Source: an uncultured archaeon
GTDB taxonomy: Archaea > Nanobdellota > Nanobdellia > Pacearchaeales > GW2011-AR1
DNA: 64,000 nucleotides
Direction: 5' to 3'
Assembly (NCBI GenBank): GCA_902385625.1
Contig: CABMGE010000014.1
Coordinates: 84 to 64,083 of the forward strand
This document shows, in pieces, positions 5,128 through 28,400 of the stretch. Below the pieces are notes generated by a model. It was not told where the DNA came from, ran no database searches, and saw only the letters and a list, made by a program, of their open reading frames with translations. The translations under genes were made by a program, and so were the position numbers. Numbering within the stretch: position 1 is the first letter of the stretch; each line of letters starts with the position of its first letter.

Positions 5128-5152
5128 TGGATTAAAAAATTAATAGGAGATT

Positions 5153-5160: not shown

Positions 5161-5182
5161 GATATTCTTTTGATATTTTCAT

Positions 5183-5254: not shown

Positions 5255-5320
5255 TAAGTTTCTTTAAGTCTATTAAAAATAAAACTTAATCTGTCAAAGA
5301 CTCGGACGAGGGAGAAAGGA

Positions 5321-5344
5321 GAGTTTGAGTCTCGGTGGAGCCAT
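5321..5344 (+). repeat. Direct repeat of the last 24 nt of the tRNA-Met region (23/24 identical to 5232-5255)
   Basis: GAGTTTGAGTCTCGGTGGAGCCAT versus GAGTTCGAGTCTCGGTGGAGCCAT, separated by 65 nt. The copy has no matching 5' T-stem strand, so it is not a tRNA by itself. Confidence 0.85.
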
Positions 5345-5436
5345 GATTTTATTTAATTTAAACAAAGTAATCAAATAAAAATCAATCTCTTTTCACCACA
5401 ACAAACTTTAAAAATAAGCATTCTAATATATTCCTT

Positions 5437-6006
5437 ATGCAAGTGCTAGAAAAAAATAGGGGTGAAATTGAGGCAAAGGCTTCAAGAATGTCAGATTTCT
5501 TAAAGATGGAATATCTTGAAGAAGTCTCAAAAAAATTCTCAGATGTTGAAATACTAAGATATTGCTATTCAGAATTATCAAAATTATATGAAAAAAATAT
5601 AATGTATCCTGAATCAATAAAGTACATTGAAAAGTTCCAGGAAGTATGCATAAGTCAAAGAGAGAAAATGCAAGCTTATACAAGGGAGATAGAGCTTTTA
5701 ATTAAAGGAGGCTATTATGATCGAGTTAACTTTGCCTACAATAAAATTTTGGAAGTTGCAACTCCCAAAGAAATATATGAGATAGAGAATAAAATAATAT
5801 TAATGTATAAATCTGAAGGAGAAAAATTTGAAAAAACAAATAAAAATGCACTTGCCTTAAAGGTTTATGAAAGGCTAGCAAAAGCACCTGCAGTAAAAGA
5901 CCCTGAAAAACAAGAGATAAAAAAGAAGCTTTTAGTTCTTTACAAAAAATTAGGAAAAGTAAGAGAGTCTCTTGAACTTGAAAGAGAGCTTGGAAGATCT
6001 AGATAG
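5437..6006 (+). CDS. Hypothetical protein, helical and possibly TPR-like
   Basis: 189-aa ORF, Lys/Glu-rich with helical-repeat character. No family recognised. Confidence 0.4.
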   Translation: MQVLEKNRGEIEAKASRMSDFLKMEYLEEVSKKFSDVEILRYCYSELSKLYEKNIMYPESIKYIEKFQEVCISQREKMQAYTREIELLIKGGYYDRVNFAYNKILEVATPKEIYEIENKIILMYKSEGEKFEKTNKNALALKVYERLAKAPAVKDPEKQEIKKKLLVLYKKLGKVRESLELERELGRSR

Positions 6007-8165: not shown

Positions 8166-9029
8166 CTATATGTTTCCTAGATGAACATTATCAAGATACT
8201 TCCTTCCTATTTTATATGCTTTCTCAAGAGATTCAATAGAAGTTGGGGAGGTTGTAACCATATTATACATAGGAAAAAATCTATTTACATGCCAGGGAAT
8301 TTTTTTGTCTATACTGGAAATAAATTTTGCAATACTTGTAAGCTCTTTTTGAGAATCATTTATCCCAGGTATAACAAGGGTAGTGATCTCAAGATAAATT
8401 CCATTCTCATAACTTTTTTTGATAGTATCTAAAACAGGTTGAAGATTACCTCCGCAGTATTTTATATAATCACGATCATTAAAGCATTTAAGATCAATAT
8501 TCATTGCATCAATATAATCGGCTATAAAGTCAAAACTTTCTTTTGAAAAATATCCATTTGTAACAAGTATATTTTTGAGTCCTTTTTTCCTTGCAAGAAT
8601 TGCGCAATCTTTAACAAACTCGATAAAAATAACAGGTTCATTATATGTATAAGAAATGCTTTTGCATTTTGTCCTTATTGCTTCAGATACAACTTTCTCA
8701 GGAGTCATCTCTTCTCCAGAAATACCTGCTTCTTTTGAATTCTGAGAAAGATCATAATTTTGGCACCAGTCACACTTAAAATTACAACCGACAGTCCCAA
8801 TAGAATAGGTTTTTGTTCCAGGTAAAAAATGGTTTAAAGGTTTTTTCTCAATTGGATCAATTCCAAGTGAAGAAATTTTTCCATAAACTAGAAGTATTAG
8901 TTTTCCAGAAATATTTTTGCGAACTCCGCATATCCCAGATCTTCCTTCAGAAATAATGCACTTATGTGAGCATGCAAGGCATCTGACATTATCCCCTTCT
9001 TTTTTATATAAAACACATTCTTTTATCAT
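8166..9029 (-). CDS. amrS: Radical SAM enzyme of the AmmeMemoRadiSam system (PFL-activase-like)
   Basis: 287 aa. N-terminal Cys cluster CLACSHKC, radical-SAM motif GCNFKCDWCQN, and neighbours encoding AMMECR1 and Memo. Confidence 0.8.
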   Translation of the reverse strand: MIKECVLYKKEGDNVRCLACSHKCIISEGRSGICGVRKNISGKLILLVYGKISSLGIDPIEKKPLNHFLPGTKTYSIGTVGCNFKCDWCQNYDLSQNSKEAGISGEEMTPEKVVSEAIRTKCKSISYTYNEPVIFIEFVKDCAILARKKGLKNILVTNGYFSKESFDFIADYIDAMNIDLKCFNDRDYIKYCGGNLQPVLDTIKKSYENGIYLEITTLVIPGINDSQKELTSIAKFISSIDKKIPWHVNRFFPMYNMVTTSPTSIESLEKAYKIGRKYLDNVHLGNI

Positions 9030-9091: not shown

Positions 9092-9820
9092 TTGATCTTA
9101 CTATTAATCATGTGGTATCCAGAACATAAAGAAGAACTAGAATTATTCATAGAAAATGCTTTCAAAAAAAAGCCAAAGATAAAATCTAAAAAAATTAATG
9201 GTCTAATTGTCCCTCATGCAGGATATGAATATTCAGGAAAAGTTGCAGGAAAAGCATTTTCTCTCTTAAAAAATAAAAAAGTTGACAAAGCAATTATTAT
9301 TGGCCCTTCACACTATGTAAATTTATCAGGGCCAATTACAGCAACCAATGGTGAATGGAAAACCTCCCTTGGAAAAATTGCAATTATCCAATTTCCATCA
9401 CTAGAAGTGATGGACTTACAAGCCGAACACTCAATAAAAAATCAAGTTCCATTTTTACAAAAAATTGGAATAAAAGAGATTATTCCTATAATGATTGGAA
9501 GAATTGAGGACAAGGAAGCAAAAGAGCTTGCAAAAAAAATTGCAAAAATAAATGCAGTCTATATTTTCTCAACAGACTTATCACACTTTTTAACCTATGA
9601 AGAAGCAGTTCAAAAAGATAGATCATCAATTAAAATAATAAAGGAATTGAATGAAACTAATTTTAAATCAATAGATGCCTGTGGTTATTTTCCATTAAGG
9701 GTTTTATTTCATTTATGTAAAATAAAAAAAACTCACCCACATCTAATAGAATATAAAAATTCAGGAGATATTACAGGAGATAAATCAACAGTAGTAGGAT
9801 ATGCTAGTTTTTGGTTTTAA
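9092..9820 (+). CDS. amrB: Memo-like protein (AmmeMemoRadiSam system protein B)
   Basis: 242 aa with LIVPHAGYEYSGKVAGKAF...IIGPSH...STDLSH. The true start may be the Met at 9110. Confidence 0.85.
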   Translation: MILLLIMWYPEHKEELELFIENAFKKKPKIKSKKINGLIVPHAGYEYSGKVAGKAFSLLKNKKVDKAIIIGPSHYVNLSGPITATNGEWKTSLGKIAIIQFPSLEVMDLQAEHSIKNQVPFLQKIGIKEIIPIMIGRIEDKEAKELAKKIAKINAVYIFSTDLSHFLTYEEAVQKDRSSIKIIKELNETNFKSIDACGYFPLRVLFHLCKIKKTHPHLIEYKNSGDITGDKSTVVGYASFWF

Positions 9821-13860: not shown

Positions 13861-16800
13861 TTATCTTCTTTTAAGAGAATCAACATCATAGCCCTTTTTC
13901 CTCCATTCTTCAAGCTTGTCCTTTTGAACAGAACTGTTCTTTTCAAGAGAACTGACATCATAACCTTTTCTTCTCCATTCTTCAATCTTATCCTTATCTG
14001 GAATTTTGTTTCGCCCAAGCAAATCAACATCATAGCCCTTTTTCCTCCACAGATTTATCTTCTGGTGTGCATTTCTTGGAGATCTCGGAGCTCTTCTGGA
14101 TATTTTTTTAAGCGCATGTTCAAGATAATTTTTCCTTGCAGGAGCCCCGCCAGAATAATCCTTTTTCATTTTATTGTGCATTATAATGGAAATTCCAATA
14201 ATTGCTAAAGTAACCAGAATAATAAAGAATAAATAAGGCCCAACTACATATTTTACAAAAAACCTTATATTAAATATATAATCGCTTAAAAGAGGTAAAC
14301 TAATTATTCCAAAAAATCCAAGCGCAAATATGACTCCAACTGATACAACTAATAAGTAAAAGACAGCAAGGAAAATCCTATGAGTTAAAATCCATTCTTC
14401 CTCATACTCAAAAAAGTTCCTAATTTTCTTTTTCTCAAGTTTTATTACAATTATTAAAAGTAAAAATATTAATATTAAGAGTAAAGGTATTATATAAAAG
14501 AAAATATTATTCAAAGCCGAGAATACATTCCCATCCTTGTCAATTTCAATTTGCCTATGAGACTCTGCAGAATATTTTTCATAAGTTACAGAGACATAAA
14601 GTTCATATCTTCCAGGAGGTGTATCTTTTGCAATGAATAATTTAGCTTTCTCTGTTTTTTCCTCCATATTTCCAATAAATATAGTATCTTTCCCAGAAGT
14701 CACCCTTTGTCCGTCTTTTTCAAGCCAGAAATCAACAATAACATCATTGTTAATATTTGCCATTCCCTTCAAGAAATAAGTGAAGGTAATAAAATTTCCA
14801 GTACCTATTGTTGAACTTACATCAAGTATTTTTATATCAAAGAGTTTTACACATCTATATTCCCAACAGGACTTTCCATCAGTGCATTGGGAATTATCTG
14901 TGCATTCACGAGTATAACACTTATTTTTAAAGCAATATTCTGTATTTTTGCAGTCTTCATTTTTCAAGCATCCATGAATAGCATTATTCTCAATTGTTTT
15001 ATTTTTTATGCTACTTCCTCCACTACCTCCGCCTCCCAAAACTCCATTAGAATTTTGTACTTCATTATTTGAACTTGCAACAGTGCCCCTTATTGCAGAG
15101 TGCCTCAAATTTTCAACTCTTATAACAGAACCTTCATCAAAGCAACTTAAACTTCCCCTTATAATACCCAAATTATTGCCAATGCAATCAGAAAAATTAG
15201 TTTCATCACTTTCTGTACAACTATCGCTCATTTGCGAAATATCAGTTAAGTCTGAATCTTTTACACATAAGTCAACAAAATCATTATCATTAATGTAAAT
15301 AACCTTGCTATATCCCATTTGCAATTGATCGGATAAATTTACAATTAAAGAGTTGTCAGCTTCTTTAATAACTACTTTATTAAGATCTAATTTTGAAAGT
15401 GAAAAATTATGGGTAAAATTCATAATTTTTTTATCAGAATCAAAAAACGCGATTTCTTGAGTATCATTATAACTGCCATAAGTTGAATTGCCACTTATAG
15501 TAATATTAAGATTATTTACACCTTCTTTAACAACATTTGATTCTCTTCCATAAAGATTATCAATCCTGTCAGAAATATTATCTTCATCAAGATCAGTATA
15601 ATTTAATATTAAAGAATAATTCTCTCCAGCCATTTGATTTCCAACAGAGTCGAAAGCCATACAACTCCAGGTATAATTTCCTTTAGGAAGAGTTAAGGTC
15701 CAGCTAGAAAAGTTACTTTCTCCAGATATCTCCTTTGTTTCATTCAATATAAAACTATTATTGAGTCCATCGGTTATATATAAACTGATATTTTTAAGAT
15801 TCTTATTTTCCATTACTGAACAATTAAAGGTCACATTTGAAATAATTGAAGAGTCATCTGAAAAATTATTAGATGGAAAGTCAAGATTTACAAAAGGAGG
15901 CATTACATCTACAGAAAATCTAACTAAACTATTATTGACATTGCCTGAAGAATCATTTGCATAAACGGTAACATTATGCTGTCCAATTATCCACATTACC
16001 TCTGAAATATTCTTGCAATTTTCAAGAATATTGCCTGTTGAATATCCTTCATCATCATACCAGCAAGAATCAAGATTTATATCTGAAACAGTATAACTAA
16101 CAATTAAAGTACCATTATTTGATTCTAGATTATTTTCAGGAGAAGTTATAGATATTAGAGGAGGAGTTATATCTTTTGTAACTGTTCTGTTTTCTGTGAC
16201 AAATGAATTTCCAGCAAAATCAAATAAATTATAAAACCATTTGTAAACTCCATCAACAAGAGTTACGACAATTCCAACAGTTGTAGTAATAGTCCCAGGA
16301 GAATAATTTACAGTTGTTCTATTGATAAGATCATTTGATGAATTAAAAACATTAAGTGTTGCATTTTTAATTCCTGATTCAGTATCTCCATATTCAGGAG
16401 TAATATCGCTCAGGTTTGCAGTAAAATTTATAGAATTATTTAAATAAGAATTATTTTCAGGTGCAAGGAGAGTTGCATTAGGATTAACTACATCAGTATT
16501 GTTTATAGTATAATACTGATTAGGAGATAAACTTTGTAAACAACTTGTCCCATTGCTATATGCCGTCCAATTATAAATAAATGTATTATTGGCAGAGAAA
16601 GTATAATTTGCACTATAAACGTTTGGACTTACACTTCTGGCATAAATAGATGCTCCATTTATATTTAGAATTACAGTCCCATTAGTATTATTGGCAGTAA
16701 TATTAAAGAATGCAACTCCACTTCCAATCAGAGATGCATTATTTGATGAAAAATTAAAGAATTGTGGGTGACTTGTATCAACGTTAAATATAACACTTGT

Positions 16801-18591
16801 TTGGTTTAAATTACCTGCAGAATCATTTGCATAAGCAATATAATTATAAGTTCCATCTAAAAGCATAAAATCAGTTGAATAATCATAACTCAAATTATTG
16901 CTTCCATTATACCACCATAAAGAAGAAACTTCACTAGTATTTGCGAGTTCAACACTAACAATTGAAGTGTTATATGAAATGTTTAATGGATAAATAAAAC
17001 TAATTCCCGGAGGTGTTCGATCCACTATGAATGTAATATTTCCCTGTGTTGACCAATCATTAGCCCCAAGTGTATTATTACACCAAATATTCCATTGGTA
17101 AGTTCCATCATTTAAATCTTTTGTAAAATAATTAGCTGAATAATTTGCAACATTAGTGGTTGAATTATTTTTACTCCAGACTCCTGCAAAATTACCCCAT
17201 AATTCACAAGTTGAAATTCCATCACTTGCCATTGGAGTGTAGTTGAACTGAACAGTTGAATTTCTATAATACCTGTCTGCAGCAGGAGAATTAAGGCTTA
17301 TTTGAGGTGGAACTGTTTTTATTCCAAAAAGAACTGTCTTTACAGCTAAATTATTAAGAGAATCATTACAATAATAATTAATTGAATATGTTTTGTCAGG
17401 CAAGATCAAAGTATAATTAAAACTTCTATTGAAATTATTTTGCATTGTATAATTATTTGTAGAATTAAGTGCAATCCAACAATAAGAATCTTCATTTGTA
17501 GTTATATTAAAAAATATTATACTTGTAGTATAAGTTTTCTCTTCAGGAATATTAACACTAATAAGTGGAGAAGTTGAATCAATAAAGAAAGTTACATTTG
17601 TTGAATTCAAGTTTCCAACAGAATCATTTGCATAAGCATAAATTATGTTTGTCCCTTCATTAAACAATTTAATAATAGTAATTAAATAGGTTTCATTCCC
17701 AAGTCCACGATTAAACCACAAGTTCTTTCCATCTGAATTAGTTAAAAGATTTATAGATAGATTTCTAGTGCTATAAGATTTATTTATCGGAGAGTTAAAT
17801 GAAATATGTGGAGGAATTGTATCAATTCCAAAGATCCTATATGTGGAATTCAGATTTCCAAAACTATCATTACAGGAAAAAATAATTGTATGACTTCCAT
17901 CAGATAAACCTGAATTTGTAAAGTTAAAATAAGTATTATTTGTTGAAGAAATTGTTATATTTGGATAAAAGTCTAAACTATATCCACACCAGCTAGCATT
18001 TTTGTTTGTGTTAAATGAAAAATTAATTGAATTTATCCTATAAGTAAAATTTAAAGGGGACAAAATGCTAATTGAAGGAGGAATAATATCTCCAACACTT
18101 ACATTATAATTTCTTGGTGCTGAATTATTTAGATTAGTTAAATTTCCATTTCCATAAGCATACCAGGAATAAGTATAATTCTTACTTGAAGTAAAGTTAT
18201 AACTTACATTGTAAACATTTGCAGAAGTATTTGTTGCAATAATATTGGTATTATTAATAACAAACCAAACAGTTCCATTTGTATTGGCCACAGTTGTATT
18301 GAAATATCCTCTTCCAAGTCCTGCCTGTACTCCATTGTTATCGTAATAATTTGAAAAGATTGGATAAATGCTATCTGGAAGTGTTCCATTAATTATTGTA
18401 ACGTTCCAAGAGTTAGTTATATTATTAATACTTCCTTCAGAAGTTTTATTTGCATAAACAAAAAATGTATAATAGTTAAAGTTTCCAGTTGCATCAACTA
18501 ACCAGGTTATTATTTTTGATTCTCCTAAATTCAGAGTGAGATTATATGGATTTGTGGTAGTAGTATAAAATGGAGTTGCACTTGAGTTCAT
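13861..18591 (-). CDS. C-terminal 1576 codons of the giant surface protein: Ig-like modules, Cys-rich stalk, multi-pass membrane anchor, cytosolic repeat tail
   Basis: Same frame as ORF 18736-30228, with no stop between 18592 and 18735. Starts inside a repeated domain (MNSSATPFYTTTTNPYNLTLN) and has no signal peptide. Hydrophobic helices lie near 14180-14500. Confidence 0.8.
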   Translation of the reverse strand: MNSSATPFYTTTTNPYNLTLNLGESKIITWLVDATGNFNYYTFFVYANKTSEGSINNITNSWNVTIINGTLPDSIYPIFSNYYDNNGVQAGLGRGYFNTTVANTNGTVWFVINNTNIIATNTSANVYNVSYNFTSSKNYTYSWYAYGNGNLTNLNNSAPRNYNVSVGDIIPPSISILSPLNFTYRINSINFSFNTNKNASWCGYSLDFYPNITISSTNNTYFNFTNSGLSDGSHTIIFSCNDSFGNLNSTYRIFGIDTIPPHISFNSPINKSYSTRNLSINLLTNSDGKNLWFNRGLGNETYLITIIKLFNEGTNIIYAYANDSVGNLNSTNVTFFIDSTSPLISVNIPEEKTYTTSIIFFNITTNEDSYCWIALNSTNNYTMQNNFNRSFNYTLILPDKTYSINYYCNDSLNNLAVKTVLFGIKTVPPQISLNSPAADRYYRNSTVQFNYTPMASDGISTCELWGNFAGVWSKNNSTTNVANYSANYFTKDLNDGTYQWNIWCNNTLGANDWSTQGNITFIVDRTPPGISFIYPLNISYNTSIVSVELANTSEVSSLWWYNGSNNLSYDYSTDFMLLDGTYNYIAYANDSAGNLNQTSVIFNVDTSHPQFFNFSSNNASLIGSGVAFFNITANNTNGTVILNINGASIYARSVSPNVYSANYTFSANNTFIYNWTAYSNGTSCLQSLSPNQYYTINNTDVVNPNATLLAPENNSYLNNSINFTANLSDITPEYGDTESGIKNATLNVFNSSNDLINRTTVNYSPGTITTTVGIVVTLVDGVYKWFYNLFDFAGNSFVTENRTVTKDITPPLISITSPENNLESNNGTLIVSYTVSDINLDSCWYDDEGYSTGNILENCKNISEVMWIIGQHNVTVYANDSSGNVNNSLVRFSVDVMPPFVNLDFPSNNFSDDSSIISNVTFNCSVMENKNLKNISLYITDGLNNSFILNETKEISGESNFSSWTLTLPKGNYTWSCMAFDSVGNQMAGENYSLILNYTDLDEDNISDRIDNLYGRESNVVKEGVNNLNITISGNSTYGSYNDTQEIAFFDSDKKIMNFTHNFSLSKLDLNKVVIKEADNSLIVNLSDQLQMGYSKVIYINDNDFVDLCVKDSDLTDISQMSDSCTESDETNFSDCIGNNLGIIRGSLSCFDEGSVIRVENLRHSAIRGTVASSNNEVQNSNGVLGGGGSGGSSIKNKTIENNAIHGCLKNEDCKNTEYCFKNKCYTRECTDNSQCTDGKSCWEYRCVKLFDIKILDVSSTIGTGNFITFTYFLKGMANINNDVIVDFWLEKDGQRVTSGKDTIFIGNMEEKTEKAKLFIAKDTPPGRYELYVSVTYEKYSAESHRQIEIDKDGNVFSALNNIFFYIIPLLLILIFLLLIIVIKLEKKKIRNFFEYEEEWILTHRIFLAVFYLLVVSVGVIFALGFFGIISLPLLSDYIFNIRFFVKYVVGPYLFFIILVTLAIIGISIIMHNKMKKDYSGGAPARKNYLEHALKKISRRAPRSPRNAHQKINLWRKKGYDVDLLGRNKIPDKDKIEEWRRKGYDVSSLEKNSSVQKDKLEEWRKKGYDVDSLKRR
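13864..14058 (-). repeat. Three tandem 72-nt (24-aa) repeats encoding (E)EWR(K/R)KGYDV...
   Basis: ATCAACATCATAGCCC at 13879 and 14023, and ACTGACATCATAACC at 13951. Protein: INLWRKKGYDVDLLGRNKIPDKDK / IEEWRRKGYDVSSLEKNSSVQKDK / LEEWRKKGYDVDSLKRR. Confidence 0.9.
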
Positions 18592-18619
18592 TGAAACTGC
18601 TCCGTTTTTTATACTTCCT

Positions 18620-19460
18620 AAAAATGTTATTGTTACATATCCAGGCCCTTTGTTTATTCCGGCACTATTATTCTGATCGATTCCTGAATTATAAGAGCCT
18701 CCTCCGCCCCCATAACCAGAGTCATAAGATCCTCCTCAACCAGAGTATCCTCCGCCTCCGCCTGCTCCTGCACATCCTGTTCCACCTCCGCCCCCAAATC
18801 CCCCTAAAGGAACAAATTCACATGAACCTTCTCCACCAAGACCTCCATTTAAAAAAGATTTTGCAACTTCTGTTGCATCAATAGTTCCACAATCTGTTAT
18901 TCCTCCGTCACTAAAAAATCCAGCACCCTGTCCTGCACAACTTTTAGAACCAGAGTATCCGCAAACACCTGATCCATACCCATTAATCCCTCCAGGACAT
19001 CCAGTCTGACTAGTTCCTCCTGAAGAATTTATAAGTGCATTTGCAAAAATACTGCTTCCTGTATAAGACATTCCCCCGCCGCCACCTGCAATAACTAAGA
19101 TAGATGAATTATCATTATATGGAGACCTGACAACAAAACTTCCACCTCCACCTCCTCCGCCATAATAACCAGTGCCAGAAGGCATCTGTCCAACTAATAT
19201 TTTAATAACTTCTCCCCGATTTAAAGAAAAAGTTCCTTTCATTCTAGATCCATTACCACTTGGATTGAGATTCTTATCTGTTCCAGCAGCACCAAATGCT
19301 TCAATGGTATAAAGTCCTGTTGCAGGAACAGTAAAGTTTTGCGTCCCATTTCCAACTGCAACAAGGCCTTGTAATGTTGTTCCATTATAAAAAAGAGTAC
19401 AATTATTCTGAGTCGGCCCTAAATATCCTGTTGCATTGCAGGTTGTAAAATTATAGATAA
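18620..19460 (-). other. ALK/LTK-like TNF-like + glycine-rich domain, copy 4 (contains the in-frame TGA)
   Basis: IYNFTTCNATGYLGPTQNNC...NGTQNFTVPATGLYTIEAFGAAGTD...ILVGQM...GGGGGGSFVV...LVIAGGGGG...GGFGGGGGTGCAGAGGGGGYSG*GGSY... Confidence 0.7.
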
Positions 19461-22400
19461 TAAAAGGATCAAGTGTAACATTTATCTCTCCACAATTCGC
19501 CCTTGAGCAACTAACATTTACGCTAACATTAAAAAAATTATTTTGAGGAGCGTTTAGATTTGTCAAAGGATAAATTAATTCTAAACCTATTTTTGGAATT
19601 TTTTTAGTAAAAGTGACGCTTGTAAAATTTAAATTTCCAGAAGAATCATTACAATATACAAAAATAGTATTACCATTTTCTATTGTAGATACATTAACAA
19701 AATTAATTCCAGATACAACTATTGAAGAATTCCAAAGTCCTGATGAATTAGAATACCAGCAAGAAGCATTCCCATTATAATCATAATAAGTGTAATTAAT
19801 AGAATTTACTTCAGAGTTATAAGTAATATTTAATGGATAAATTATATTAATTGCAGGAGGAATAATATCTTTAATTGTTACATTTAATTTTGACGTTTGA
19901 TTTCCAATACTCAAGTTTGTTGTAGCATTTGCATAAACATAAAATTCAAATGGATTATTTGGAGTTCCAGTTGCATTAACAAACCAGGCAATAATTATTG
20001 ATTCATTTATATTTAAGGTTAAATTATATGGATTTGTTACATTTGTGTAAAAAGGAGTTTCATTTAAATTCATTGAAACAACTCCCCCTTTTCCACTTGC
20101 ATAAGTAATTAATACATACCCTTGCCCAGTATTTATTCCAGCAGTATTATTTTGATTAATGCCCGAGTTATAAGAACCTCCGCCGCCTCCATAACCTTGT
20201 GCATAAGATCCTCCGCCACCAGAGTATCCTCCGCCTCCGCCTGCACCATAACATCCAACTCCGCCGCCTCCACCAAATCCTCCTAAAGGAATAAATTCAC
20301 AAGAACCTTCTCCACCTGAGCCTCCATTTAAAAAAGATTTTGCAACTTCTGTTGCATCAATAGTTCCACAATCTGTTATTCCCCCATTAGTAAAAAATCC
20401 TGCCCCTTGTCCTGCACAGCTTTTTTGCCCAGAATATCCACAAATACCAGAACCATTCCCACTAGCTCCACCAAGGCAACCAGTCTGACTTGCTCCGCCT
20501 GAATAACCTGCTAGTCCATTTGCATTTACATTATTTCCAGTGTTATATGTTGTTCCCCCGCCACCACCTGCAATAACTAAAATAGATGAATTATCATTAT
20601 ATGGAGACCTGACAACAAAAGTGCCTCCGCCTCCAGCACCGCCATAACTGCTAGATCCATTAGCCATCTGTCCTGCGAGAATTTTAATAACTTCTCCTTT
20701 TGTCAAAGTAAATGTTCCCTTCATTTTTGCTCCATAACCGCATGGATTATGATTAACATCAGTTCCTGCAGCACCTGCTGCTTCGATGATATAAGATCCA
20801 GTTGCAGGAACAGTAAAGTTTTGCGTTCCATTTGAAACTGTTACAATTCCTGCAAGAGATGTCCCCAAATAAGCTAAATTACACTCAGTTTGATTAGGTC
20901 CAATATTTCCCATTTTATTGCAAGTTGTAAAATTATAAACAATAACAGCAGGGTCAAGAGTTACATTTATCTGCCCGCAATTTGAAACACTGCAGCTAAT
21001 GTTAACACTAATATTAAAGAAAATATTCTGAGTCGTGTTTATGTTTGTTGCAGGACTAATCCAATCAAGATTAATTCTTGAAAAAGTTTCAGAAATAATG
21101 GAATTAACTGTTATATTTCTTTTTTCAGTAGAATTAAAGTTTCCATATGCATCTGTTGCAAATGCTTGATAAGTATAATTTCCAGGACTAAGTCCTGTAG
21201 TTGAATTCTTTGATTGATTCAAATATAAATACCATTGCATTGAATTAAATTTCTGTAGATTGCTTGCATATAATTCATAAATCTCTGCAGAACTAAGAGA
21301 CCTGTTCCATATCATAAAATTATCTAAATAACCTGCAAATCTTCCCGCAGTTCCACTGTTTATATCCCCAAGTCTAAATGTTGTCCACGCAAAATTAGAT
21401 GTACCAACTGCCGAACCAGCAGTCTGTTTTACTCCATTCTTAGTCCAATTTATTATTCTATTTGTTCCATCATGTGAATACTGAAAGCAAAGATGTGTCC
21501 ATACTCCAGGAGTTAATCCCATAGATACTTTCGGAGACTGATCCCACCACTCAATGTCCCCTGAATTATAATTTCTTACTACATCAGCTATACCTGGAGC
21601 TGAATCAAATATTCCGCTAGGATTTGCTGAATTAGAATTAACCCAGAAACATATTGTGAATGGAAGTGTTGGTTTAGGCACATTTGTTATTACATAATCA
21701 TCAACTCCATCAAATCCAATTGCATTACCAAATCTTCCAATTGAATAATTGCATCCTGAAATCATATTTGAGCAATTCACAGTAATATTATATTTTGAAA
21801 TGTCTGTTATTTTATTTAAAGCGCTACCTTCACCCAACCCGGAAATATTATCAAAATTCATCATTAAGATCAAAGAATTATCATAAAGACTAAAATTCGT
21901 TCCATTCCAATTATAAATTAATGAATTAAGATTTTGTTCACTAATTGAAACATTAATTATAACAGAAGTATTTGTGGTATTAAAATAATTTATAGGGGTT
22001 GGATCTGAAAAATTAATCCGTGGAGGAATTGTATCAACAGTTAAGGTATGATTTTGAGTTGTGAAACTGTTTCCAGAATTATCAATTATTTTATAGAACC
22101 ACTTATACACTCCATCAACAAGAGTAACAACGATTCCAACAGTAGAAGTTAATGTTCCTTGAGGATAACTTATTGTAGTCTGATTAACAAGACTAGTTTG
22201 ATTCCAAATATTAAGAGTCGCATTTTTAATCCCAAGATTATCAGTTATATTTGCAGTGAAATTATAACTGAAATTACTTGAAATAGTATTGTTTTGGGGA
22301 ACAACTAAAGTTGCATTAGGAAGAGTTGTATCTGAAATAAATGTGACACTACTCGAGTTTACATTGCCTGCTAAATCTTTTATATAAATTCTCCAATTAT

Positions 22401-25400
22401 TTGTGCCTTCTAAACCAGAAATTCCTGTAATATTATTACAGTCAATTAATGAAGAATTAGTTATTCCATTATTAAGAGAGTACCAACAACCATAAACATT
22501 CGCTTCATTGTAACTATAATTAATTGTATAAACTATTGAATTATAATTTGTATTCGCAGGATAAGTTATTGAAATCTGAGGATATACCCGATCAACAATT
22601 AATGAGCGTGAAGTACCAAGAACAAGATTATTCGAATTGTTATCATAACATTCTACATTCCATGAATGAGTTCCTTCTCCAAGAGGTATGATTATAGAAT
22701 AAACAGCCCCACTATTTGGAGAATTAATAGTTGTATTCTCTTCTCCATCCAGTATAAGCGTACAATTTGTCGCAGTACCATTATAATATACAAAAGAAAA
22801 ATTAACGTTATTGTAGTTTAATATGCTTTGATCCACAGGGTTTAGAAGATTAACTGAAAATACAGGAAGATTTCCAAAGACTTGGAAATTAGTTATACTT
22901 GTAGAATTAATATTTCCAGCATTGTCTCTTATAAAAAATCTATAACCATAACTTCCTGTTGTTACGGTTTTTGTTACTGCAATTGAAGCAGAATTTCCAG
23001 AAATAGAAACTTCTGAATCATTAAGCCACGTTCCTGAAATATTTGATGAAAAGATATATCCCCCTAATAAATAATTATCATAAACATTAACAAGGAAACT
23101 TATCTGCTGATTATTATATACAGGGCTGCTGTCAGAAATGGAATTAAATGTAGGGGGATCATTATCGAATTTTACAAAAAATCTATCCGAGGTCCTCAAA
23201 TTATTTGGCAGGGTATTATCCCGAATATATACAGGAACACTTTTTTGCCCTGTATTTGAGTTAACTAGGACAGAAATATTCCAAAATGACCATTGTGCAG
23301 TACTTTTATTCCCCGAAGAAAAAATCATGGTGGTATTTGTAGAACTATTTAATAAACTTAAGTCAACAACAGAATTATTTATTCCTGAACTTACTCCATC
23401 ATCAGATGCATCTGAAGCATTAATTCCAAGGATTATATTCTGTCCGTTTCTAATATAATACTGACCTGCAGGGTAAATAACGGTCAAATCTTTTGAATAA
23501 GGAATACTTCTATCAATATAATAATGAACAGAGTCAGTTGCATTATTTCCTGAAGTATCATATGCAATTGCTCTAAAGTCATAACCTTCTGAAGCATTTG
23601 AAAACAATCTTGTCTGCCAAAGACAGCTATAAACTCCATTTGTGCCTGAATCAACAATGCTAACATTGCAAAGTGTGATGTAATTCATGCTTGAATTTTT
23701 ATACTGGAATAAAACATTGCGAATTCCATTATTATCTGTTGAAAACTCTTGGATTGTAAGATTCCCGTTGACAAAACTATTATTTGCAGGATTTATTATT
23801 AATACACTTGGAGGATTAAAATCTCCCTTGGCAAGTGGCAAGTAATCAGTATTCTTATTTTTGATAGTATATCCAAGATCGCATATCCCATCTGAATTTG
23901 AATCAATGCAGATATCTGAAAAATCACTTGAAGTTGGATTTGTCCAATAGTTTCCACCCATATTTGTTCCATTGATTATGTTTACTAAAGAAATTTTTGT
24001 TATATTCCAATAATTTTCATCAGATGCATCAAGCCGTAAATTAAGAGAATTATTAAGGTAATTATTATAAATCCAGTTTGAGGAGGATTTCCCCTTGACA
24101 GCCATTCCATATTGTTTGCTTCCAGTTATTCTATTGCCTGAAAAATTTGTATTACTCGAAGTGTCAAGATAATATGCAATTGAATTGTTTGTAAAATTAT
24201 TATTTATAGATGAAATATTATTACTGTTAAGGATATATAGTCCATACTCGGAATTATTATTAACTAAACTATTTGTGACTTTTCCTTTTTTTGAAGAATA
24301 AAAATAAATTCCATTATAAAAATTAGTGATAATACAATTTTGTATAGTTAGATTATCTTTTCCATTTATTTCTATCCCAATATCCCCGGGACTTCCATCA
24401 CCAATTAGAATTGAATTATTGCAATCAACAACTATATTATTTGCAAGTATTCTTAGCATATCCTGAGTGGTATTATAATTTCCATAACATAATGTAATAT
24501 TTTGAGCTACATTATAAAATCCAGAGCCTTGTGTAATTTTATTTTGATAAGTAGTTGGATCTGAAAGATTTATACAATTTGATGAAGAGGTATTTGAATT
24601 AGTTGAATTTAAGATTGTAACATTCCAAAAAGAGGTTATGTTACTGATAGTCAAATCTGTTGTTAAATTTGCATAAACAAAAAATGTATAAGTATTTGGA
24701 CTTCCTGTTGAATTAACAAACCAGGTTATCACCTGTGACTGCCCCTGGTTTAAGGTAATATTATACGGATTTGTTGTATTTGTATAAAATGGAGTTGCAC
24801 TAGAATTCATTGAAACAATTCCATCTTTAACAGATCCTGAGAAAGTTATTGTAACATAACCTGCGGATAAAATTGTATTTAGACTATTATTTTGACTTGT
24901 TCCATTGTTAAATGATCCCCCTGCTCCAGCAACTCCACTGCTGTCTGTTCCAGCTCCTCCCGAATATCCGCCTCCAGCACCACTTGCCCCCATATTACAC
25001 CATTCTCCTCCGCTGCCTCCACCAAATCCTCCTGCTCCTCCACTACCACAACTCCCTCCTGCTCCTCCACTACCATTTGTAATAAAAGCATTTCCTCTTC
25101 CAGAAGATGCACTAACAGTTCCATTTCCATAAAATCCTCCTCCCCCAGAGGATCCACTTCCTGCCCCTCCTCCATTTCCATTTATTCCTCCTGTATAAAC
25201 TCCCATTGAACCATTTAGTCCAGAAGTATTTAGAGATGCATTTTGTCCACTTCTCGGATTAGAATTTCCGCCGCCACCTCCACCTCCACCTGCTACAATT
25301 AAAGGAGTATTTTCTGATAATGCAACAAAACTTCCACCTCCACCTCCACCTGCACTATTTGCACTTGTTGTTCCTACCTGTCCCACAATAATTTTAAGTA

Positions 25401-28400
25401 TTTGTCCAGCAGTTAAACTAAATGTTCCAACCATTCGTGCACCCCTTCCTCCCGGATAAGAGGTAGTAGAACCATTTCCTCCAGAAGCTCCAACTGTTTC
25501 AATTATATAAGTTCCAGTAAATGGAACTGTCCAATATTGTGTTCCATTAATAACAGTTACTCCTGTTGCAAGGATTGTACTTGAATAACTCAAATTGCAA
25601 ACACTCTGATTTGGTCCAAACGGTCCCGTAGTATTGCAAGTTGTAAAATTATAAACCGTGGAGGTAGGATCAAGAGTTACATTTATCTGCCCGCAATTTC
25701 CAATTAAACAACTCACATTTACACTCACATTAAAAAATTGATTTTGACTTACATTAATATTATTTAATGGATAAATAATACTGAGTCCTATTCTTGGAAT
25801 CATTTTTGAAAAATTAATTGTTACAGAATTTAAATTTCCAGAACTATCATTGCAATAAACAGTCCATAAATTATTTCCATCACTACTATTAACATTTGTA
25901 AAATTAATTCCAGCATTAAGTATCGAAGAATTCCAAAGTCCAGAAGAATTAGAATACCAACAACTGCCCCCGGAGTTATAATCATAATAAGTATAGTTAA
26001 TTGAATTAACATTATAACTATAAGTAATATTTAATGGATAAGTTATATTAATTATTGGGGAGATAATATCTTTGATTGTTACATTAATTCTTGAAGTCTG
26101 ATTTCCAATACTTGAATTTGTTGTAGCATTTGCATAAACGTAAAATTCAAATGGAATGTTTGGTGTTCCAGTTGCATTAACAAACCAGGTAATAATTCTT
26201 GATTCTCCATTATTTAAAGTCAAATTATACGGATTAGTTGTATTTGTATAAAATGGAGTTACACTTGAATTCATTGAAACTGTTCCTCCTTTGACTGATC
26301 CTGAAAAACTAATTAAAACATATGCGGCACCATAATTACCGGGCATAGAATTATTCTGATTTGTTCCATTATTAACTGATCCTCCTCCACCTCCTCCTGA
26401 ATAAGGTTCACCTCCACCAAATCCTCCTGCTCCACCACCAAATCCTCCTCCTGCTCCTCCTGCATAAGCAACTGCACCACCTCCACCAAATCCTCCATCA
26501 GACGGATAATTTGTATAATTTATTCCACCAAATCCTCCAGAAATAAAAGATGTTCCCATCAAGGTATTTGCACCATTTCCATTGCCAACAGAACCATTTG
26601 TCAAAAGTCCAGCGCCTCCTCCTCCAGGCCAAGTTCCAGTACCGGTTGTTCCTCCGGATCCATTGCATCCAGGAGTACCACTTCCATCATTAGCTGTTGT
26701 TCCGCAAACAGTAAGAGAAGCATTTTTTCCATTTTGCAAACTTCTTCCTCCAACTCCACCGCCTCCGCCTGCAATAACTAAAGGATCATTATTTGACCTG
26801 ACAACAAAAGTTCCTCCGCCACCGCCTCCGCCCCCATCACTCGTTTTATTTCCACCATCCTGTCCAACAAGGATTTTAATAACTTCTCCTTTTTGTAAAA
26901 CAAAGTCTCCAGATAATACTGCTCCTCTTCCAGGACTTTTATCTAAATTCTGAAAAGTATTATTTCCTCCATTAGCACCACGAACCTCTATTCTATAGGT
27001 TCCTGTTGCAGGAACAGTCCAGTTCTGAATTCCATTATTAACAAAAACTTGTCCTTCAAGAGAAGTTCCAAGATAAATAGAATTACATTGAGATTGATTC
27101 GGCCCAAGTCTACCGGTTTTTCCGCAAGTTGTGAAATTATAAAGAGTCAAAGAAGTTGGATCAAGTGTAACATTTACTTGCCCGCAATTTGAATTGAAGC
27201 AACTTATATTAATACCAAAATTAAAAAAATTATTCTGGGTTACATTGATATTTGTTGTCGGAGAAACTAAATCTAAATTAATCTGAGGGGTATTTTCATT
27301 AATTGTAATAGTTCTTTGTTCAGTCAGGTTAAAATTTCCACTATTATCTTTTGCAAAAGCCTGATAAGTATAAGTCCCGTCAGAAAGTCCAGTAGTTGCA
27401 TTTTGTGACTGATTTACATAAAGATACCATTGTGTAAAGTTAAACTTGTTTAGGTTAGAAACATACTGTTCATAGATTTCAGCAGCAGACAGGCTTCTGT
27501 TCCAAACTCTTACTTCGTCAATAGAACCATTAAAATAATCCGAGCAACAACCACCTAAATTGTTGTTTCTCGCACCAACAGTCATACTTTCATTAGGATA
27601 AAATTTAAAGGCAGATTCACTTGTTTGATTCATTAATATTCCATTTAGATAAATTTTTACAACACTGGCATTTCCCACAATAGTTCCATAATACCACTGA
27701 TTTGCTAAAACAGTCCCGACTCCACTGCATGGGCCATCATTTGTAGCACAAAGACCATTACTTGTTACATAAATATATCCTTCATATCCAGAGTTATGTC
27801 TGTCTTTACCTAAAATTGCATTCCAATTACCTTCGATTAGTTTAGGATAAAACCAGAAAGATATTGTTTTTGTCTGATTTCCATCCCCAAAATCAATCGA
27901 ATTGTCACTGCTTAGATTAATATAACTTACACTTGAACGATTAAACCAATATGCTCCTCCATATTTTCCAGATGAGTTCCACTTTGCACCATAAACAGTT
28001 CCATTATTTCCATATTTACTTACATCAACAACATAAGTTGAATTTTCTCCAAGTGAAGTTAAATTATCAAAATTCACCATCAAAACCAATGAACCATCAT
28101 AAATCGTATAATTTGTCGAGTTCCAATTATAAGTAATATTGGCAGGATTCTGTTCAGATATTGTAAAATTTAGCTGGATAGAATTGTTTGAAGAAATTGT
28201 TCCATTTGCAGGGGTTGGTGATGTAAAATTGATTTGAGGAGGAATCATGTCAAGGCCTGAGTTAATAATTATAGTTCTTTTCTCAGTTGAGTTAGAATTT
28301 CCAGAGTTATCAGTTGCAGATGCCTGATAAGTATAAGTCCCGTCAGAAAGTCCAGTAGTTGCATTTTGTGACTGATTTACATAAAGATACCATTGTGTTG

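What the first reader, a model, noticed from the sequence alone, without database searches (positions are those of the whole stretch)
18620..27150. Four tandem copies of an ALK/LTK-type TNF-like + polyglycine domain in an archaeal giant surface protein
- **What recurs:** Four ~280-aa segments (26300-27150, 24845-25660, 20100-20940, 18620-19460) share one ordered motif set:
  - (Y)NFTTC(G/N)xxGxxGPxQxxC,
  - NG(I/T)Q(N/Y)(W/F)TVP(A/F)TGxYxIExxGAxGG,
  - (I/L)(L/I)(V/A)GQ,
  - a run of 6-8 Gly followed by (T/S)FVV,
  - L(V/I)(I/V)AGGGGG,
  - further Gly runs including GGFGGGGGxGCxGAGGGGGYSGG.
- **What it resembles:** From memory, this order and wording match the ligand-binding TNF-like plus glycine-rich region of the metazoan receptor kinases ALK and LTK. 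It also matches the uncharacterised microbial 'glycine rich protein' family (Pfam Gly_rich, PF12810), whose Gly runs form polyglycine-II helices in the ALK structures.
- **Why it matters:** Four copies on one archaeal adhesin-like protein, each preceded by a small Cys-containing beta-module, is an unusual deployment of a domain whose only known function is cytokine binding in animals.
Basis: partly seen in the sequence, partly recalled or inferred. Interest (0 to 1): 0.8.

Follow-up and report, generated by a model that had tools for sequence, protein, structure and literature searches.

The report
ALK-like glycine-rich heads on archaeal adhesin
A giant surface protein of a tiny symbiotic-type (DPANN) archaeon carries four copies of the same TNF-like plus glycine-rich module that human ALK uses to bind its ligand. 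The module turns out to be widespread in microbes and viruses, so this is a well-supported but fairly ordinary new member of a known family.

Summary
One minus-strand gene (30228..13861, 5,455 codons) contains exactly four ~290-aa copies. Each scores 282-304 bits against an HMM built from 111 unrelated homologues.

The homology claim also holds:
- Pfam PF12810 is matched.
- A profile of the copies hits ALK and LTK chains in the PDB at E = 1e-24.
- An AlphaFold model (core pLDDT >90) matches only ALK/LTK TG structures (E down to 8e-17, TM up to 0.72).

The claim of unusual deployment fails. The family has more than 8,600 representative clusters in bacteria, archaea, cnidarians and viruses. Giant proteins with five or six copies exist. 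Woese-, Pace- and Nanoarchaeota genomes encode close relatives. Phage tail fibres use a TNF-like plus glycine-rich tip for receptor binding.

New points:
- Copy 4 is cut by an in-frame TGA (18736-18738), which replaces a Gly codon and splits the gene into two ORFs.
- The "small Cys module" is half of a CARDB/macroglobulin-like β-sandwich, and each copy is inserted into it.
- Relatives have this host domain uninterrupted, or carrying NIDO-like or MAM-like inserts.

Most likely function: multivalent binding heads on a glycosylated, membrane-anchored adhesin.

The parts
13861..30228 (-). One gene of 5,455 codons for a giant surface protein. It is called as two ORFs (30228..18736 and 18591..13861) because of one in-frame TGA.
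   Evidence: Translation is continuous in one frame. The metagenomic relative P0145 (5,484 aa) is collinear on both sides of the break.
18736..18738 (-). In-frame TGA (codon 3831) inside TG copy 4, at a position where copy 3 has Gly (GGC).
   Evidence: TGA ends 5 of the 33 ORFs checked, this one included; in the other four the downstream frame is full of stops.
26269..27165 (-). TG (TNF-like + glycine-rich) copy 1, aa 1022-1320.
   Evidence: 293.5 bits against the family HMM. Matches PF12810.
24805..25677 (-). TG copy 2, aa 1518-1808.
   Evidence: 282.5 bits. It is the best Pfam stretch, at aa 1571-1809.
20068..20961 (-). TG copy 3, aa 3090-3387.
   Evidence: 304.1 bits. The AF2 model has core pLDDT >90. 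Foldseek matches ALK/LTK TG structures.
18586..19479 (-). TG copy 4, aa 3584-3881, interrupted by the TGA.
   Evidence: 301.9 bits with the stop read as Gly. It is 82% identical to copy 3 in the Gly-rich part.
27157..27288 (-). Host β-sandwich 1, N-terminal half (aa 981-1024; motif ..SC....CG.(I/V)NVTLDP).
   Evidence: Matches the N-terminal part of the 123-position host-domain HMM (positions 2-52 here; up to 70 in the other units).
26062..26289 (-). Host β-sandwich 1, C-terminal half (aa 1314-1389; TPFYTN..NPYNLTL...).
   Evidence: Matches host-domain HMM positions 46-121.
25666..25797 (-). Host β-sandwich 2, N-terminal half (aa 1478-1521).
24598..24825 (-). Host β-sandwich 2, C-terminal half (aa 1802-1877).
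20950..21081 (-). Host β-sandwich 3, N-terminal half (aa 3050-3093).
   Evidence: The two halves fused in silico fold as one CARDB/MG-like sandwich.
19864..20088 (-). Host β-sandwich 3, C-terminal half (aa 3381-3455).
19465..19596 (-). Host β-sandwich 4, N-terminal half (aa 3545-3588).
18382..18606 (-). Host β-sandwich 4, C-terminal half (aa 3875-3949). It lies downstream of the TGA and overlaps the start of the second called ORF.
   Evidence: The second ORF starts mid-domain at MNSSATPFYT.
29332..29892 (-). LamG-like jellyroll 1 (aa 113-299).
   Evidence: PF13385 matches at E = 9e-76 with 4 stretches. The self-comparison defines the repeat boundaries.
28390..28929 (-). LamG-like jellyroll 2 (aa 434-613).
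27427..27978 (-). LamG-like jellyroll 3 (aa 751-934).
21232..21744 (-). LamG-like jellyroll 4 (aa 2829-2999). It opens the duplicated block LamG-TG-Ig-TG.
23932..24510 (-). NosD-like right-handed β-helix (aa 1907-2099), between the two TG pairs.
   Evidence: PF05048 at E = 2.3e-24 and PF13229 at 8.2e-13 when the segment is scanned alone.
30154..30228 (-). N-terminal hydrophobic signal or anchor (aa 1-25).
   Evidence: Hydropathy scan.
14179..14502 (-). Three C-terminal transmembrane-like segments (aa 5243-5350).
   Evidence: Hydropathy scan.
13864..14076 (-). Basic tail with three W(R/K)(R/K)KGYDV repeats (aa 5394, 5418, 5442).

Best explanation
**What it is.** The region is one 5,455-codon gene for a heavily N-glycosylated cell-surface protein of a DPANN-type archaeon, with relatives in Woese-, Pace- and Nanoarchaeota. 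The protein has an N-terminal signal and three C-terminal membrane helices. Between them lies a long chain of LamG-like jellyrolls, Ig-like domains and a NosD-like β-helix.

**The four modules.** Four TG modules are true homologues of the ligand-binding module of ALK and LTK. Each has a TNF-like β-sandwich whose loops build a glycine-rich, presumably polyglycine-II, block. Each TG module is inserted into a loop of a small CARDB/macroglobulin-like β-sandwich, so it projects sideways from the stalk as a 'head'.

**How it most likely works (inferred).** The rigid Gly-rich block and TNF-like sandwich present variable connecting loops that bind a partner on another cell or on a polymer surface. Four heads plus four LamG lectin-like domains would give multivalent attachment. 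This resembles phage tail-fibre tips built from the same kind of module.

**Shown versus inferred.**
- Shown: homology, copy number, nesting and topology.
- Inferred: the binding function and the identity of the ligand.

**The TGA.** The TGA inside copy 4 is most simply a very recent nonsense change or a sequence error. It is not a recoding event.
For: **Homology**
- PF12810 matches.
- The PDB profile search gives ALK at E = 1.6e-24 and LTK at 4.5e-23. The FTTCG..GP.GPTQ.QC signature is aligned residue by residue.
- The AF2 model has mean pLDDT 80.7, with the core above 90.
- The top 21 Foldseek PDB hits are all ALK/LTK TG structures (E 8e-17 to 3e-8, TM by target up to 0.72). TNF-family proteins are among the weak matches that follow, at E of about 0.7-2.
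- There are exactly four copies, at 282-304 bits each.

**Nesting in a host domain**
- The host-domain HMM matches only as two halves around each TG copy.
- Uninterrupted host domains exist in relatives: P0127 aa 697-814 and two in P0243.
- The fused halves fold as one β-sandwich (pLDDT 72.7). It matches complement MG domains (TM by query 0.6-0.71) and the Pyrococcus CARDB domain 3idu (TM by target 0.71) over its whole length.
- In relatives the same host domain holds NIDO-like (E = 1.4e-5) or InhA-like MAM (E = 4e-11) inserts.
- In the collinear relative P0145, the positions equivalent to copies 3 and 4 hold NIDO-like modules.

**Surface location**
- The protein has an N-terminal signal or anchor and three C-terminal TM segments.
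- It has 313 N-x-S/T sequons against 139 expected from composition.

**Binding role by analogy**
- Homologues sit on secreted or surface proteins with T9SS, PEP-CTERM, cadherin, PKD and fn3 partners.
- Phage Pam3 gp24 uses a TNF-like plus Gly-rich tip for host recognition (PMC9608196).
- Large LamG, N-glycosylated proteins are proposed as attachment systems in nanohaloarchaea, a DPANN group (PMC7443923).

**Archaeal host**
- The window encodes endA, TFIIB and S3ae.
Against: - No ligand, expression data or host association is known for this organism. The binding role rests on analogy and domain company only.
- As sequenced, the gene is interrupted. The 3,830-aa product would lack the membrane anchor and have a truncated fourth head.
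It is inferred from the Foldseek alignment to solved TG domains.
- The β-sandwich model of the host domain comes from an artificial fusion with only four sequences, and its confidence is moderate.
- Copy 1 alone scores below Pfam's cut-off (16.7 bits), although it scores 293 bits against the deeper family HMM.
Confidence: 0.6

Rival explanations
1. The TG modules are structural rather than ligand-binding. They would act as rigid glycine-lattice blocks that stiffen or space the stalk. Alternatively they could mediate self-association of the protein into a surface coat.
For: - The Gly-rich core is highly conserved (invariant Gly columns).
- In ALK and LTK the TG module also makes receptor-receptor contacts in the ligand complexes (own knowledge; the 2:1 and 2:2 complexes 9g5i, 7nwz and 7nx0 are listed).
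- The protein is very long and repetitive.
Against: - The same host-domain slot carries NIDO-like or MAM-like modules in relatives. That fits exchangeable binding heads better than a fixed structural element.
- The heads are inserted laterally into a loop rather than placed in series with the stalk.
- Phage counterparts use the module for receptor recognition.
Confidence: 0.2
2. The gene is a pseudogene, or a strain-level null allele, so the four copies have no current function. The TGA is a real nonsense mutation.
For: - An in-frame TGA sits at codon 3831, where the paralogue has Gly.
- TGA is a working stop in other genes of the window.
- The downstream ORF has no signal peptide and starts in the middle of a domain.
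Against: - The 1,624 codons after the TGA remain open in the same frame. They are 40-66% identical to the intact relative P0145 along their whole length. Any inactivation is therefore very recent.
- A base-call or assembly error cannot be excluded, because copies 3 and 4 share exact DNA runs of 60-67 nt.
Confidence: 0.15
3. It works like ALK. The TG heads would capture a small secreted protein ligand, and ligand-driven dimerisation would be signalled across the membrane to the repeat-bearing cytoplasmic tail.
For: - It shares the TG module with ALK and LTK.
- It has transmembrane segments followed by a conserved-looking 3x WRKKGYDV tail.
Against: - No kinase or any other signalling domain was detected.
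- The heads lie up to about 4,200 residues from the membrane.
- No EGF-like module follows the TG module.
- ALKAL ligands are known only in vertebrates (own knowledge).
Confidence: 0.04
4. The resemblance is a composition artefact: glycine-rich low-complexity sequence that matches a glycine-rich Pfam model by chance.
For: - The copies are 27-29% Gly.
- Pfam scores for single copies are modest, with a best E-value of 2e-6 and copy 1 at 0.0074.
Against: - The best-aligned part is the non-glycine N-terminal 105 residues (77.6 bits to ALK, with bias 0.6).
- The structure search returns only TG domains.
- Each copy scores about 290 bits against the family HMM.
Confidence: 0.01

Closest known systems
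TG supradomain (TNF-like + glycine-rich domain) of the metazoan receptor kinases ALK and LTK (PDB 7nx1, 7n00, 7lrz, 7lir; Pfam PF12810 ALK_LTK_GRD)
   Same: - It has the same ordered motifs, including FTTCG..G..GP.Q.QC.
- It has the same predicted fold, with Foldseek E down to 8e-17 and TM by target up to 0.72.
- The sequence-profile E-value is 1e-24.
   Different: - It has no kinase, EGF-like, MAM or LDLa context.
- There are four copies per chain.
- Each copy is nested inside a CARDB/MG-like β-sandwich.
- Copies 3 and 4 carry extra Cys in the connecting loops.
- The ligand is unknown. ALKAL cytokines are vertebrate proteins (own knowledge).
Bacterial 'glycine rich domain-containing proteins' (PF12810) on T9SS, PEP-CTERM or pilin-like secreted proteins, for example Flavobacteriia MEI8192486.1
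   Same: - It belongs to the same domain family, at 40-56% identity over the matched parts.
- Members are often multi-copy in giant surface proteins alongside Ig-like, PKD or cadherin modules.
   Different: - The sorting signals differ: bacterial proteins use T9SS or PEP-CTERM, whereas this protein has C-terminal TM helices.
- The host-domain insertion was seen only in a subset of hits; those that carry a taxon name are DPANN or unspecified archaea. It was not examined systematically in bacteria.
- No bacterial member has a known function.
Phage receptor-binding tips with glycine-rich lattices: cyanophage Pam3 tail fibre gp24 (TNF-like + glycine-rich domain) and Salmonella phage S16 gp38
   Same: - They combine a TNF-like sandwich with a Gly-rich lattice.
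- Pam3 gp24 is reported as structurally similar to C. elegans ALK, with variable distal loops proposed to bind the host receptor (PMC9608196).
- 62 viral predicted structures match the model of copy 3.
   Different: - Phage tips are trimeric and terminal on a helical shaft, and they need a chaperone.
- Here the module is a monomeric lateral insertion in a cellular protein.
- Pam3 gp24 did not appear among the top PDB hits.
Giant LamG/ConA-like, N-glycosylated surface proteins of DPANN archaea, proposed as host-attachment systems (PMC7443923; CARDB-containing surface proteins of Mia14, PMC5498576)
   Same: - It has four LamG-like jellyrolls.
- It has 313 glycosylation sequons.
- It shares the giant size, the membrane anchoring and the DPANN-like genome context.
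   Different: - TG heads were not mentioned in the passages of those papers that I read.
- The association of this organism with a host is not known.

Membership tests
Pfam PF12810 (ALK_LTK_GRD) / TG supradomain | Significant match to the family profile | tested here: met
   - The whole protein scores 48.7 bits against a cut-off of 24.5.
- All four copies match at E <= 0.1, with the best at 2e-6. Copy 1 alone scores 16.7 bits, below the cut-off.
- Each copy scores 282-304 bits against an HMM of 111 non-window homologues.
Pfam PF12810 (ALK_LTK_GRD) / TG supradomain | N-terminal TNF-like strand signature FTTCG..G..GP.Q.QC with its two Cys, followed by NG.Q.W.VP..G.Y.I..GA.GG | tested here: met
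   The signature is present in all four copies. It aligns residue by residue to human ALK at 77.6 bits with low bias.
Pfam PF12810 (ALK_LTK_GRD) / TG supradomain | Fold: TNF-like β-sandwich intertwined with a glycine-rich block | tested here: met
   - The AF2 model has core pLDDT >90.
- All 21 significant Foldseek PDB hits are ALK/LTK TG structures, with 320-358 aligned columns and TM by target 0.47-0.72.
- TNF-family proteins are among the weak matches that follow (E about 0.7-2).
Pfam PF12810 (ALK_LTK_GRD) / TG supradomain | Polyglycine-II backbone geometry and hexagonal packing of the Gly segments | not testable with these tools
DSSP shows no α or β structure over residues about 180-320 despite pLDDT >90, which is compatible with this geometry but is not a test.
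ALK/LTK receptor tyrosine kinases | Intracellular tyrosine kinase domain | tested here: not met
   No kinase family appears in Pfam scans of the whole protein or its segments. The tail has only 3x WRKKGYDV repeats.
ALK/LTK receptor tyrosine kinases | Membrane-proximal EGF-like module directly after the TG module | tested here: not met
   Each TG copy is followed by the C-terminal half of its host β-sandwich. No EGF family was reported in the Pfam scans.
ALK/LTK receptor tyrosine kinases | Binding of ALKAL-type cytokine | not testable with these tools
   This needs binding experiments. Conservation of the ALK ligand-contact residues was not analysed.
Phage TNF-like + glycine-rich receptor-binding tips (Pam3 gp24 type) | TNF-like + Gly-rich fold shared with phage virion proteins | tested here: inconclusive
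   - 62 BFVD matches have E <= 1e-3, including cyanophage virion structural proteins.
- TM scores are mostly low (0.15-0.5).
- Pam3 gp24 is not among the top 50 PDB hits.
Phage TNF-like + glycine-rich receptor-binding tips (Pam3 gp24 type) | Terminal position on a trimeric helical shaft, with a dedicated chaperone | tested here: not met
   The module is internal and nested in a β-sandwich. The model shows no helical shaft.
DPANN giant LamG-type adhesins | LamG/ConA-like jellyroll domains in a very large secreted protein | tested here: met
   PF13385 matches at E = 9e-76 with 4 stretches. The protein is 5,455 aa long.
DPANN giant LamG-type adhesins | Dense N-glycosylation sequons; signal peptide and membrane anchoring | tested here: met
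   There are 313 sequons against 139 expected. An N-terminal hydrophobic segment and three C-terminal TM-like segments were found with a simple hydropathy scan, not a dedicated predictor.
DPANN giant LamG-type adhesins | Role in attachment to a host cell | not testable with these tools
   This needs cultivation or imaging. It is only proposed in the literature for nanohaloarchaea (PMC7443923).

The most novel reading that the evidence does not exclude
**Proposal.** The CARDB/MG-like β-sandwich acts as a 'cassette holder'. DPANN archaea exchange whole binding heads (TG, NIDO-like, MAM-like, Cys-rich) at fixed loop positions of otherwise collinear giant adhesins. The exchange would occur by recombination at the conserved ...NCGEINVTLDP / G.VS.N..TPFYT boundaries. 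This would retarget attachment much as phages swap tail-fibre tips.

**Support so far.**
- The window protein has TG heads at the third and fourth host-domain positions, where its collinear relative P0145 has NIDO-like heads.
- Copies 3 and 4 show signs of recent conversion.

**Broader corollary.** The ligand-binding module of animal ALK and LTK may descend from such microbial or viral adhesion heads.
Probability: 0.3. Interest if true: 0.55.

Novelty: new member of a known kind. Interest (0 to 1): 0.38.

Why it matters
- **Origin of the ALK module.** The ligand-binding module of the oncogenic receptors ALK and LTK is not an animal invention. It belongs to a very large microbial and viral family of surface 'heads', none of which has been studied in a cellular microbe.
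- **An experimental target.** The archaeal proteins offer compact host::TG units of about 400 aa. These could be expressed to learn what the fold binds outside animals.
- **DPANN biology.** The nested-cassette layout suggests how giant adhesins diversify their specificity. This bears on how these tiny archaea recognise partners.
- **Limits.** None of this overturns current knowledge. The family, its Pfam link to ALK and its presence in prokaryotes are already in the databases.

Tried and rejected
**TGA recoding rejected**
- I considered TGA read as Gly (as in genetic code 25), selenocysteine, or programmed read-through.
- Recoding of TGA to Gly (code 25) is rejected. TGA ends 5 of the 33 ORFs checked, this one included. 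The other four are followed by stop-rich sequence.
- The 3,830 codons upstream of this TGA contain no other in-frame TGA.
- Rfam found only tRNAs and no SECIS-like element, which argues against selenocysteine. Programmed read-through was not tested and is not excluded.

**Searches for the source genome or the same allele found nothing**
- An exact look-up of the window's TFIIB protein found nothing on record.
- A single-protein scan of genome contigs gave 0 confirmed loci.
- An exact DNA pattern around the TGA gave 0 hits in metagenome contigs.

**Sequence tests on the host-domain fusion were uninformative**
- Pfam gave nothing significant, with Big_7 best at E = 0.062.
- The PDB sequence profile gave only an S-layer protein at E = 3.4.
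- The word-indexed protein search with the host-domain profile returned one fragment and missed the known giant relatives.

**Other dead ends**
It was therefore run with the four window sequences only.
- Literature searches for prokaryotic ALK-like domains or PF12810 gave only a fungal genome paper, and the original ALK structure paper was not held.
- A neighbour-joining tree of 60 TG domains is star-like and has no support values. I use it only to note two things: copies 3 and 4 are sisters, and copy 1 groups with one TG copy each of P0126 and P0145 (the P0145 copy is its collinear counterpart).


Full report
**1. The gene.**
- The finding lies in a minus-strand ORF, 30228..18736 (3,830 aa). 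It is followed by a second ORF, 18591..13861 (1,576 aa).
- Translating across the junction shows that both are in one frame, separated by a single TGA at 18738-18736. The local sequence reads ...GGGGGYSG*GGSYDSGYGGGGGSYNSG..., where the paralogous copy 3 reads ...GGGGGYSGGGGSYAQGYGGGGGSYNSG....
- At the DNA level copy 3 has GGC and copy 4 has TGA at this codon.
- The second ORF begins in the middle of a conserved domain (MNSSATPFYT...) and has no signal peptide.
- The true unit is therefore one gene of 5,455 codons.
- TGA ends 5 of the 33 ORFs checked in the window, this one included. The other four are followed by frames full of stops. A change of genetic code is excluded.
- The 1,624 codons downstream of the TGA are still open. 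They are 40-66% identical to an uninterrupted 5,484-aa metagenomic relative, P0145.
- The interruption is thus either very recent or an error. Copies 3 and 4 share exact DNA runs of 60-67 nt, which could mislead an assembler or promote gene conversion.

**2. The organism.**
- The window encodes tRNA-intron endonuclease, TFIIB, ribosomal protein S3ae, FtsY and RNase Z.
- It has about 31% G+C, and most of the ten ORFs scanned have no Pfam match.
- The nearest named relatives of the giant protein come from Candidatus Woesearchaeota, Candidatus Pacearchaeota and Nanoarchaeota assemblies.
- I conclude that the host is a DPANN-type archaeon. The source genome itself was not found in the collections searched.

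**3. The observation.**
- NFTTC occurs four times, at aa 1031, 1527, 3099 and 3593. Each is followed by the Q(N/Y)(W/F)TVP motif and Gly runs, and each copy ends shortly before a TPFYT motif.
- The four copies align over about 300 columns with 68% mean column identity.
- An HMM built only from 111 homologues found elsewhere detects exactly four full-length domains, at 293.5, 282.5, 304.1 and 301.9 bits.

**4. Homology to ALK and LTK.**
- Pfam reports PF12810 (ALK_LTK_GRD) for the whole protein at E = 1.3e-12. The score is 48.7 bits against a cut-off of 24.5.
- All four copies match individually. The best E-value is 2e-6, and copy 1 is sub-threshold at 16.7 bits.
- A profile of the four copies searched against all PDB sequences returns only ALK, LTK and the C. 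elegans ALK homologue SCD-2, at E = 1.6e-24, 4.5e-23 and 1e-11.
- The strongest stretch of that match is the non-glycine N-terminal 105 residues (77.6 bits, bias 0.6). It includes FTTCG-SGPHGPTQAQC aligned to NFTTCNKTGKLGPNQSEC. This rules out a composition artefact.
- An AlphaFold2 model of aa 3042-3472, built with a 114-sequence alignment, has mean pLDDT 80.7 and pTM 0.77. Blocks covering residues 60-330 are mostly above 90.
- Foldseek against the PDB gives 21 significant hits, all of them TG domains of ALK, LTK or SCD-2. E-values run from 7.9e-17 to 3e-8, with 320-358 aligned columns and TM by target up to 0.72 for the LTK TG domain 7nx1. The weaker matches that follow (E 0.3 or more) include TNF, CD40L and EDA.
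- I could not inspect backbone angles, so the polyglycine-II geometry is inferred rather than measured.

**5. How unusual is it?** It is not unusual.
- A full HMMER scan of 1.84 billion representative proteins finds 8,693 with E <= 1e-3, 5,654 with E <= 1e-10 and 1,809 with E <= 1e-30.
- The top of that list is dominated by giant proteins with two to eight matched stretches each. Examples are P0121 (2,429 aa), P0122, P0123 (3,708 aa, a Flavobacteriia 'glycine-rich protein' with T9SS relatives), P0124 and P0125.
- A domain extraction shows five or six full-length copies in each of these.
- The word-indexed search adds named members. These come from Verrucomicrobiota, Bacteroidetes, Psychroflexus ('glycine rich domain-containing protein'), Myxococcota, Pseudomonadales and soft and stony corals. 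Their Pfam partners are typical of secreted proteins: T9SS tail, PEP-CTERM, N-methyl pilin motif, cadherin, PKD and fn3.
- A pattern scan of species-representative genomes finds the archaeal type in at least a dozen assemblies labelled as DPANN lineages, unspecified archaea or (doubtfully) Methanosarcinales, and also in Bacteroidota.
- The model also matches 62 viral predicted structures. These include cyanophage virion structural proteins and giant-virus 'glycine-rich domain-containing' proteins.
- The literature describes a cyanophage tail fibre, Pam3 gp24. Its TNF-like plus glycine-rich tip is structurally similar to C. elegans ALK and is proposed to recognise the host receptor (PMC9608196).
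- Phage S16 gp38 is another glycine-lattice adhesin tip (PMC13243192).
- Cytokine binding in animals is therefore not the only context in which this architecture is known.

**6. The flanks: a split host domain.**
- Each copy is preceded by about 45 conserved residues (I.L..I.P..N.N..QN.FFN.S.N.SC...NCG.INVTLDP). It is followed by about 75 more (G.VSMNSS.TPFYTN.TNPYNLTLN.GES..I.WFVNATG......F.VYAN.T....N.TS..NVTI).
- An HMM of the two flanks joined together (123 positions, built from 24 joined-flank units of the window protein and its relatives) matches the window protein only as N-halves and C-halves bracketing each TG copy.
- In relatives the same HMM matches three uninterrupted domains: P0127 aa 697-814 (E = 2.9e-31) and two in P0243. 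There NCGEINVTL is followed after a short loop by the NP.N(V/L)TL strand.
- Across 47 split host domains, insert lengths cluster at about 150-220 and 265-300 residues.
- The shorter inserts are other modules. P0145 carries a NIDO-like insert (PF06119, E = 1.4e-5). P0216 carries an InhA-like MAM insert (PF20773, E = 4e-11). P0127 carries a Cys-rich module.
- An AlphaFold2 model of the copy-3 flanks fused in silico gives a nine-strand β-sandwich, using four sequences, with pLDDT 72.7 and pTM 0.69. The only low-confidence stretch is at the fusion point.
- That model matches complement C3/C4/C5 macroglobulin domains over its full length (TM by query 0.6-0.71). It also matches the Pyrococcus CARDB domain 3idu (TM by target 0.71) and an adhesin CLIPPER domain.
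- The 'small Cys-containing beta-module' is therefore half of a host β-sandwich, and the TG module is a nested insertion in one of its loops.
- The confidence of that model is moderate. The uninterrupted natural versions are the stronger evidence.

**7. Architecture and history.**
- From the N terminus the protein has a signal or anchor (aa 1-25), then three Ig-LamG units.
- These are followed by host::TG1, an Ig domain and host::TG2, then a NosD-like β-helix (aa 1907-2099, E = 2.3e-24).
- Next come Ig-like repeats and a fourth LamG, then host::TG3, an Ig domain and host::TG4, then about 1,100 residues of Ig-like repeats (Big_13, Big_3_2).
- The C-terminal end has a Cys-rich stretch, three TM segments and a basic tail with three W(R/K)(R/K)KGYDV repeats.
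- Residues about 900-1880 and about 2965-3957 are a segmental duplication, LamG-TG-Ig-TG.
- P0145 is collinear with the window protein over aa 848-2760 and 3870-5454. At the positions equivalent to TG3 and TG4 it has NIDO-like heads in the same host domain.
- Copies 3 and 4 are 82% identical in the Gly-rich part, against 44-50% for the other pairs.
- Head replacement or conversion at fixed positions has therefore happened in this lineage.

**8. Function.**
- Nothing here tests function directly.
- The topology is a signal, 313 N-x-S/T sequons against 139 expected, and a C-terminal membrane anchor. This places the TG heads outside the cell on a very long stalk.
- They are accompanied by LamG lectin-like domains. 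Large N-glycosylated proteins with such domains are proposed to form host-specific attachment systems in nanohaloarchaea, a DPANN group (PMC7443923).
- Three observations point the same way. The heads are exchangeable. Homologues sit on secreted bacterial proteins. Phage tips of the same kind bind receptors.
- The best-supported mechanism is multivalent binding by laterally displayed TG heads. I put this at about 0.6.
- A purely structural or self-association role comes next, at about 0.2.
- An ALK-like signalling receptor is unlikely, because there is no kinase or other signalling domain and the heads are thousands of residues from the membrane.
- Whether this particular allele is functional depends on the TGA.

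**9. Verdict.**
- The claimed rarity is not. This is a new archaeal member of a known, very widespread family.
- It has two additions worth recording: the interrupted reading frame, and the nested, exchangeable-head architecture shared with DPANN relatives.

Noticed in passing
window 18736-18738 (minus strand): An in-frame TGA replaces a Gly codon inside TG copy 4 and splits a 5,455-codon gene into two called ORFs. TGA is an ordinary stop elsewhere in the window.
   Followed up: yes
window 18586-19479 vs 20068-20961: Copies 3 and 4 share exact DNA runs of about 60-67 nt and are 82% identical in the Gly-rich part at protein level. Other copy pairs are 44-50% identical there. This suggests recent duplication or gene conversion, and it also carries a risk of assembly error.
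   Followed up: partly
window 23932-24510 (aa 1907-2099): A NosD-like right-handed β-helix (PF05048, E = 2.3e-24) was found only when the segment was scanned alone. The whole-protein Pfam scan did not list it.
   Followed up: partly
window 13864-14076 (aa 5385-5455): After three TM segments, the cytoplasmic tail carries three W(R/K)(R/K)KGYDV repeats spaced 24 residues apart. No family was assigned.
   Followed up: no
window about 14848-14970 (aa about 5086-5127): A cysteine-rich stretch (CLKNEDCKNTEYCFKNKCYTRECTDNSQCTDGKSCWEYRC) lies just outside the membrane anchor. It has no Pfam match.
   Followed up: no
window 39627-45758, 45751-47691, 50989-54414, 55038-57707 (minus strand): Four further large ORFs (2,043, 646, 1,141 and 889 aa) have no Pfam family at E <= 1e-4. 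They may be additional lineage-specific proteins.
   Followed up: no
window 8166-9029 (-) and 9092-9820 (+): A divergent gene pair encodes an AmmeMemoRadiSam system: a radical SAM enzyme (E = 1.6e-85) and protein B/MEMO1-like (E = 2.3e-59).
   Followed up: no
relatives P0127 aa 697-814; P0243 aa 1983-2098 and 2875-2989; P0145 aa 3270-3476 and 3685-3891; P0216 aa 3065-3244: In relatives the host β-sandwich occurs uninterrupted, or with NIDO-like or InhA-like MAM inserts in place of TG. Across 47 host domains, insert lengths cluster at about 150-220 and 265-300 aa.
   Followed up: yes
loci L003, L005, L006, L013, L016: Several assemblies labelled 'uncultured Methanosarcinales archaeon' carry the DPANN-type TG gene at 43-56% identity. 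The taxonomic label of these bins looks doubtful, or the contigs may be contaminants.
   Followed up: no
relatives P0254, P0260, P0286: One source (JGI/IMG) names these giant LamG/TG proteins 'sporulation protein YlmC with PRC-barrel domain'. This appears to be a misannotation.
   Followed up: no
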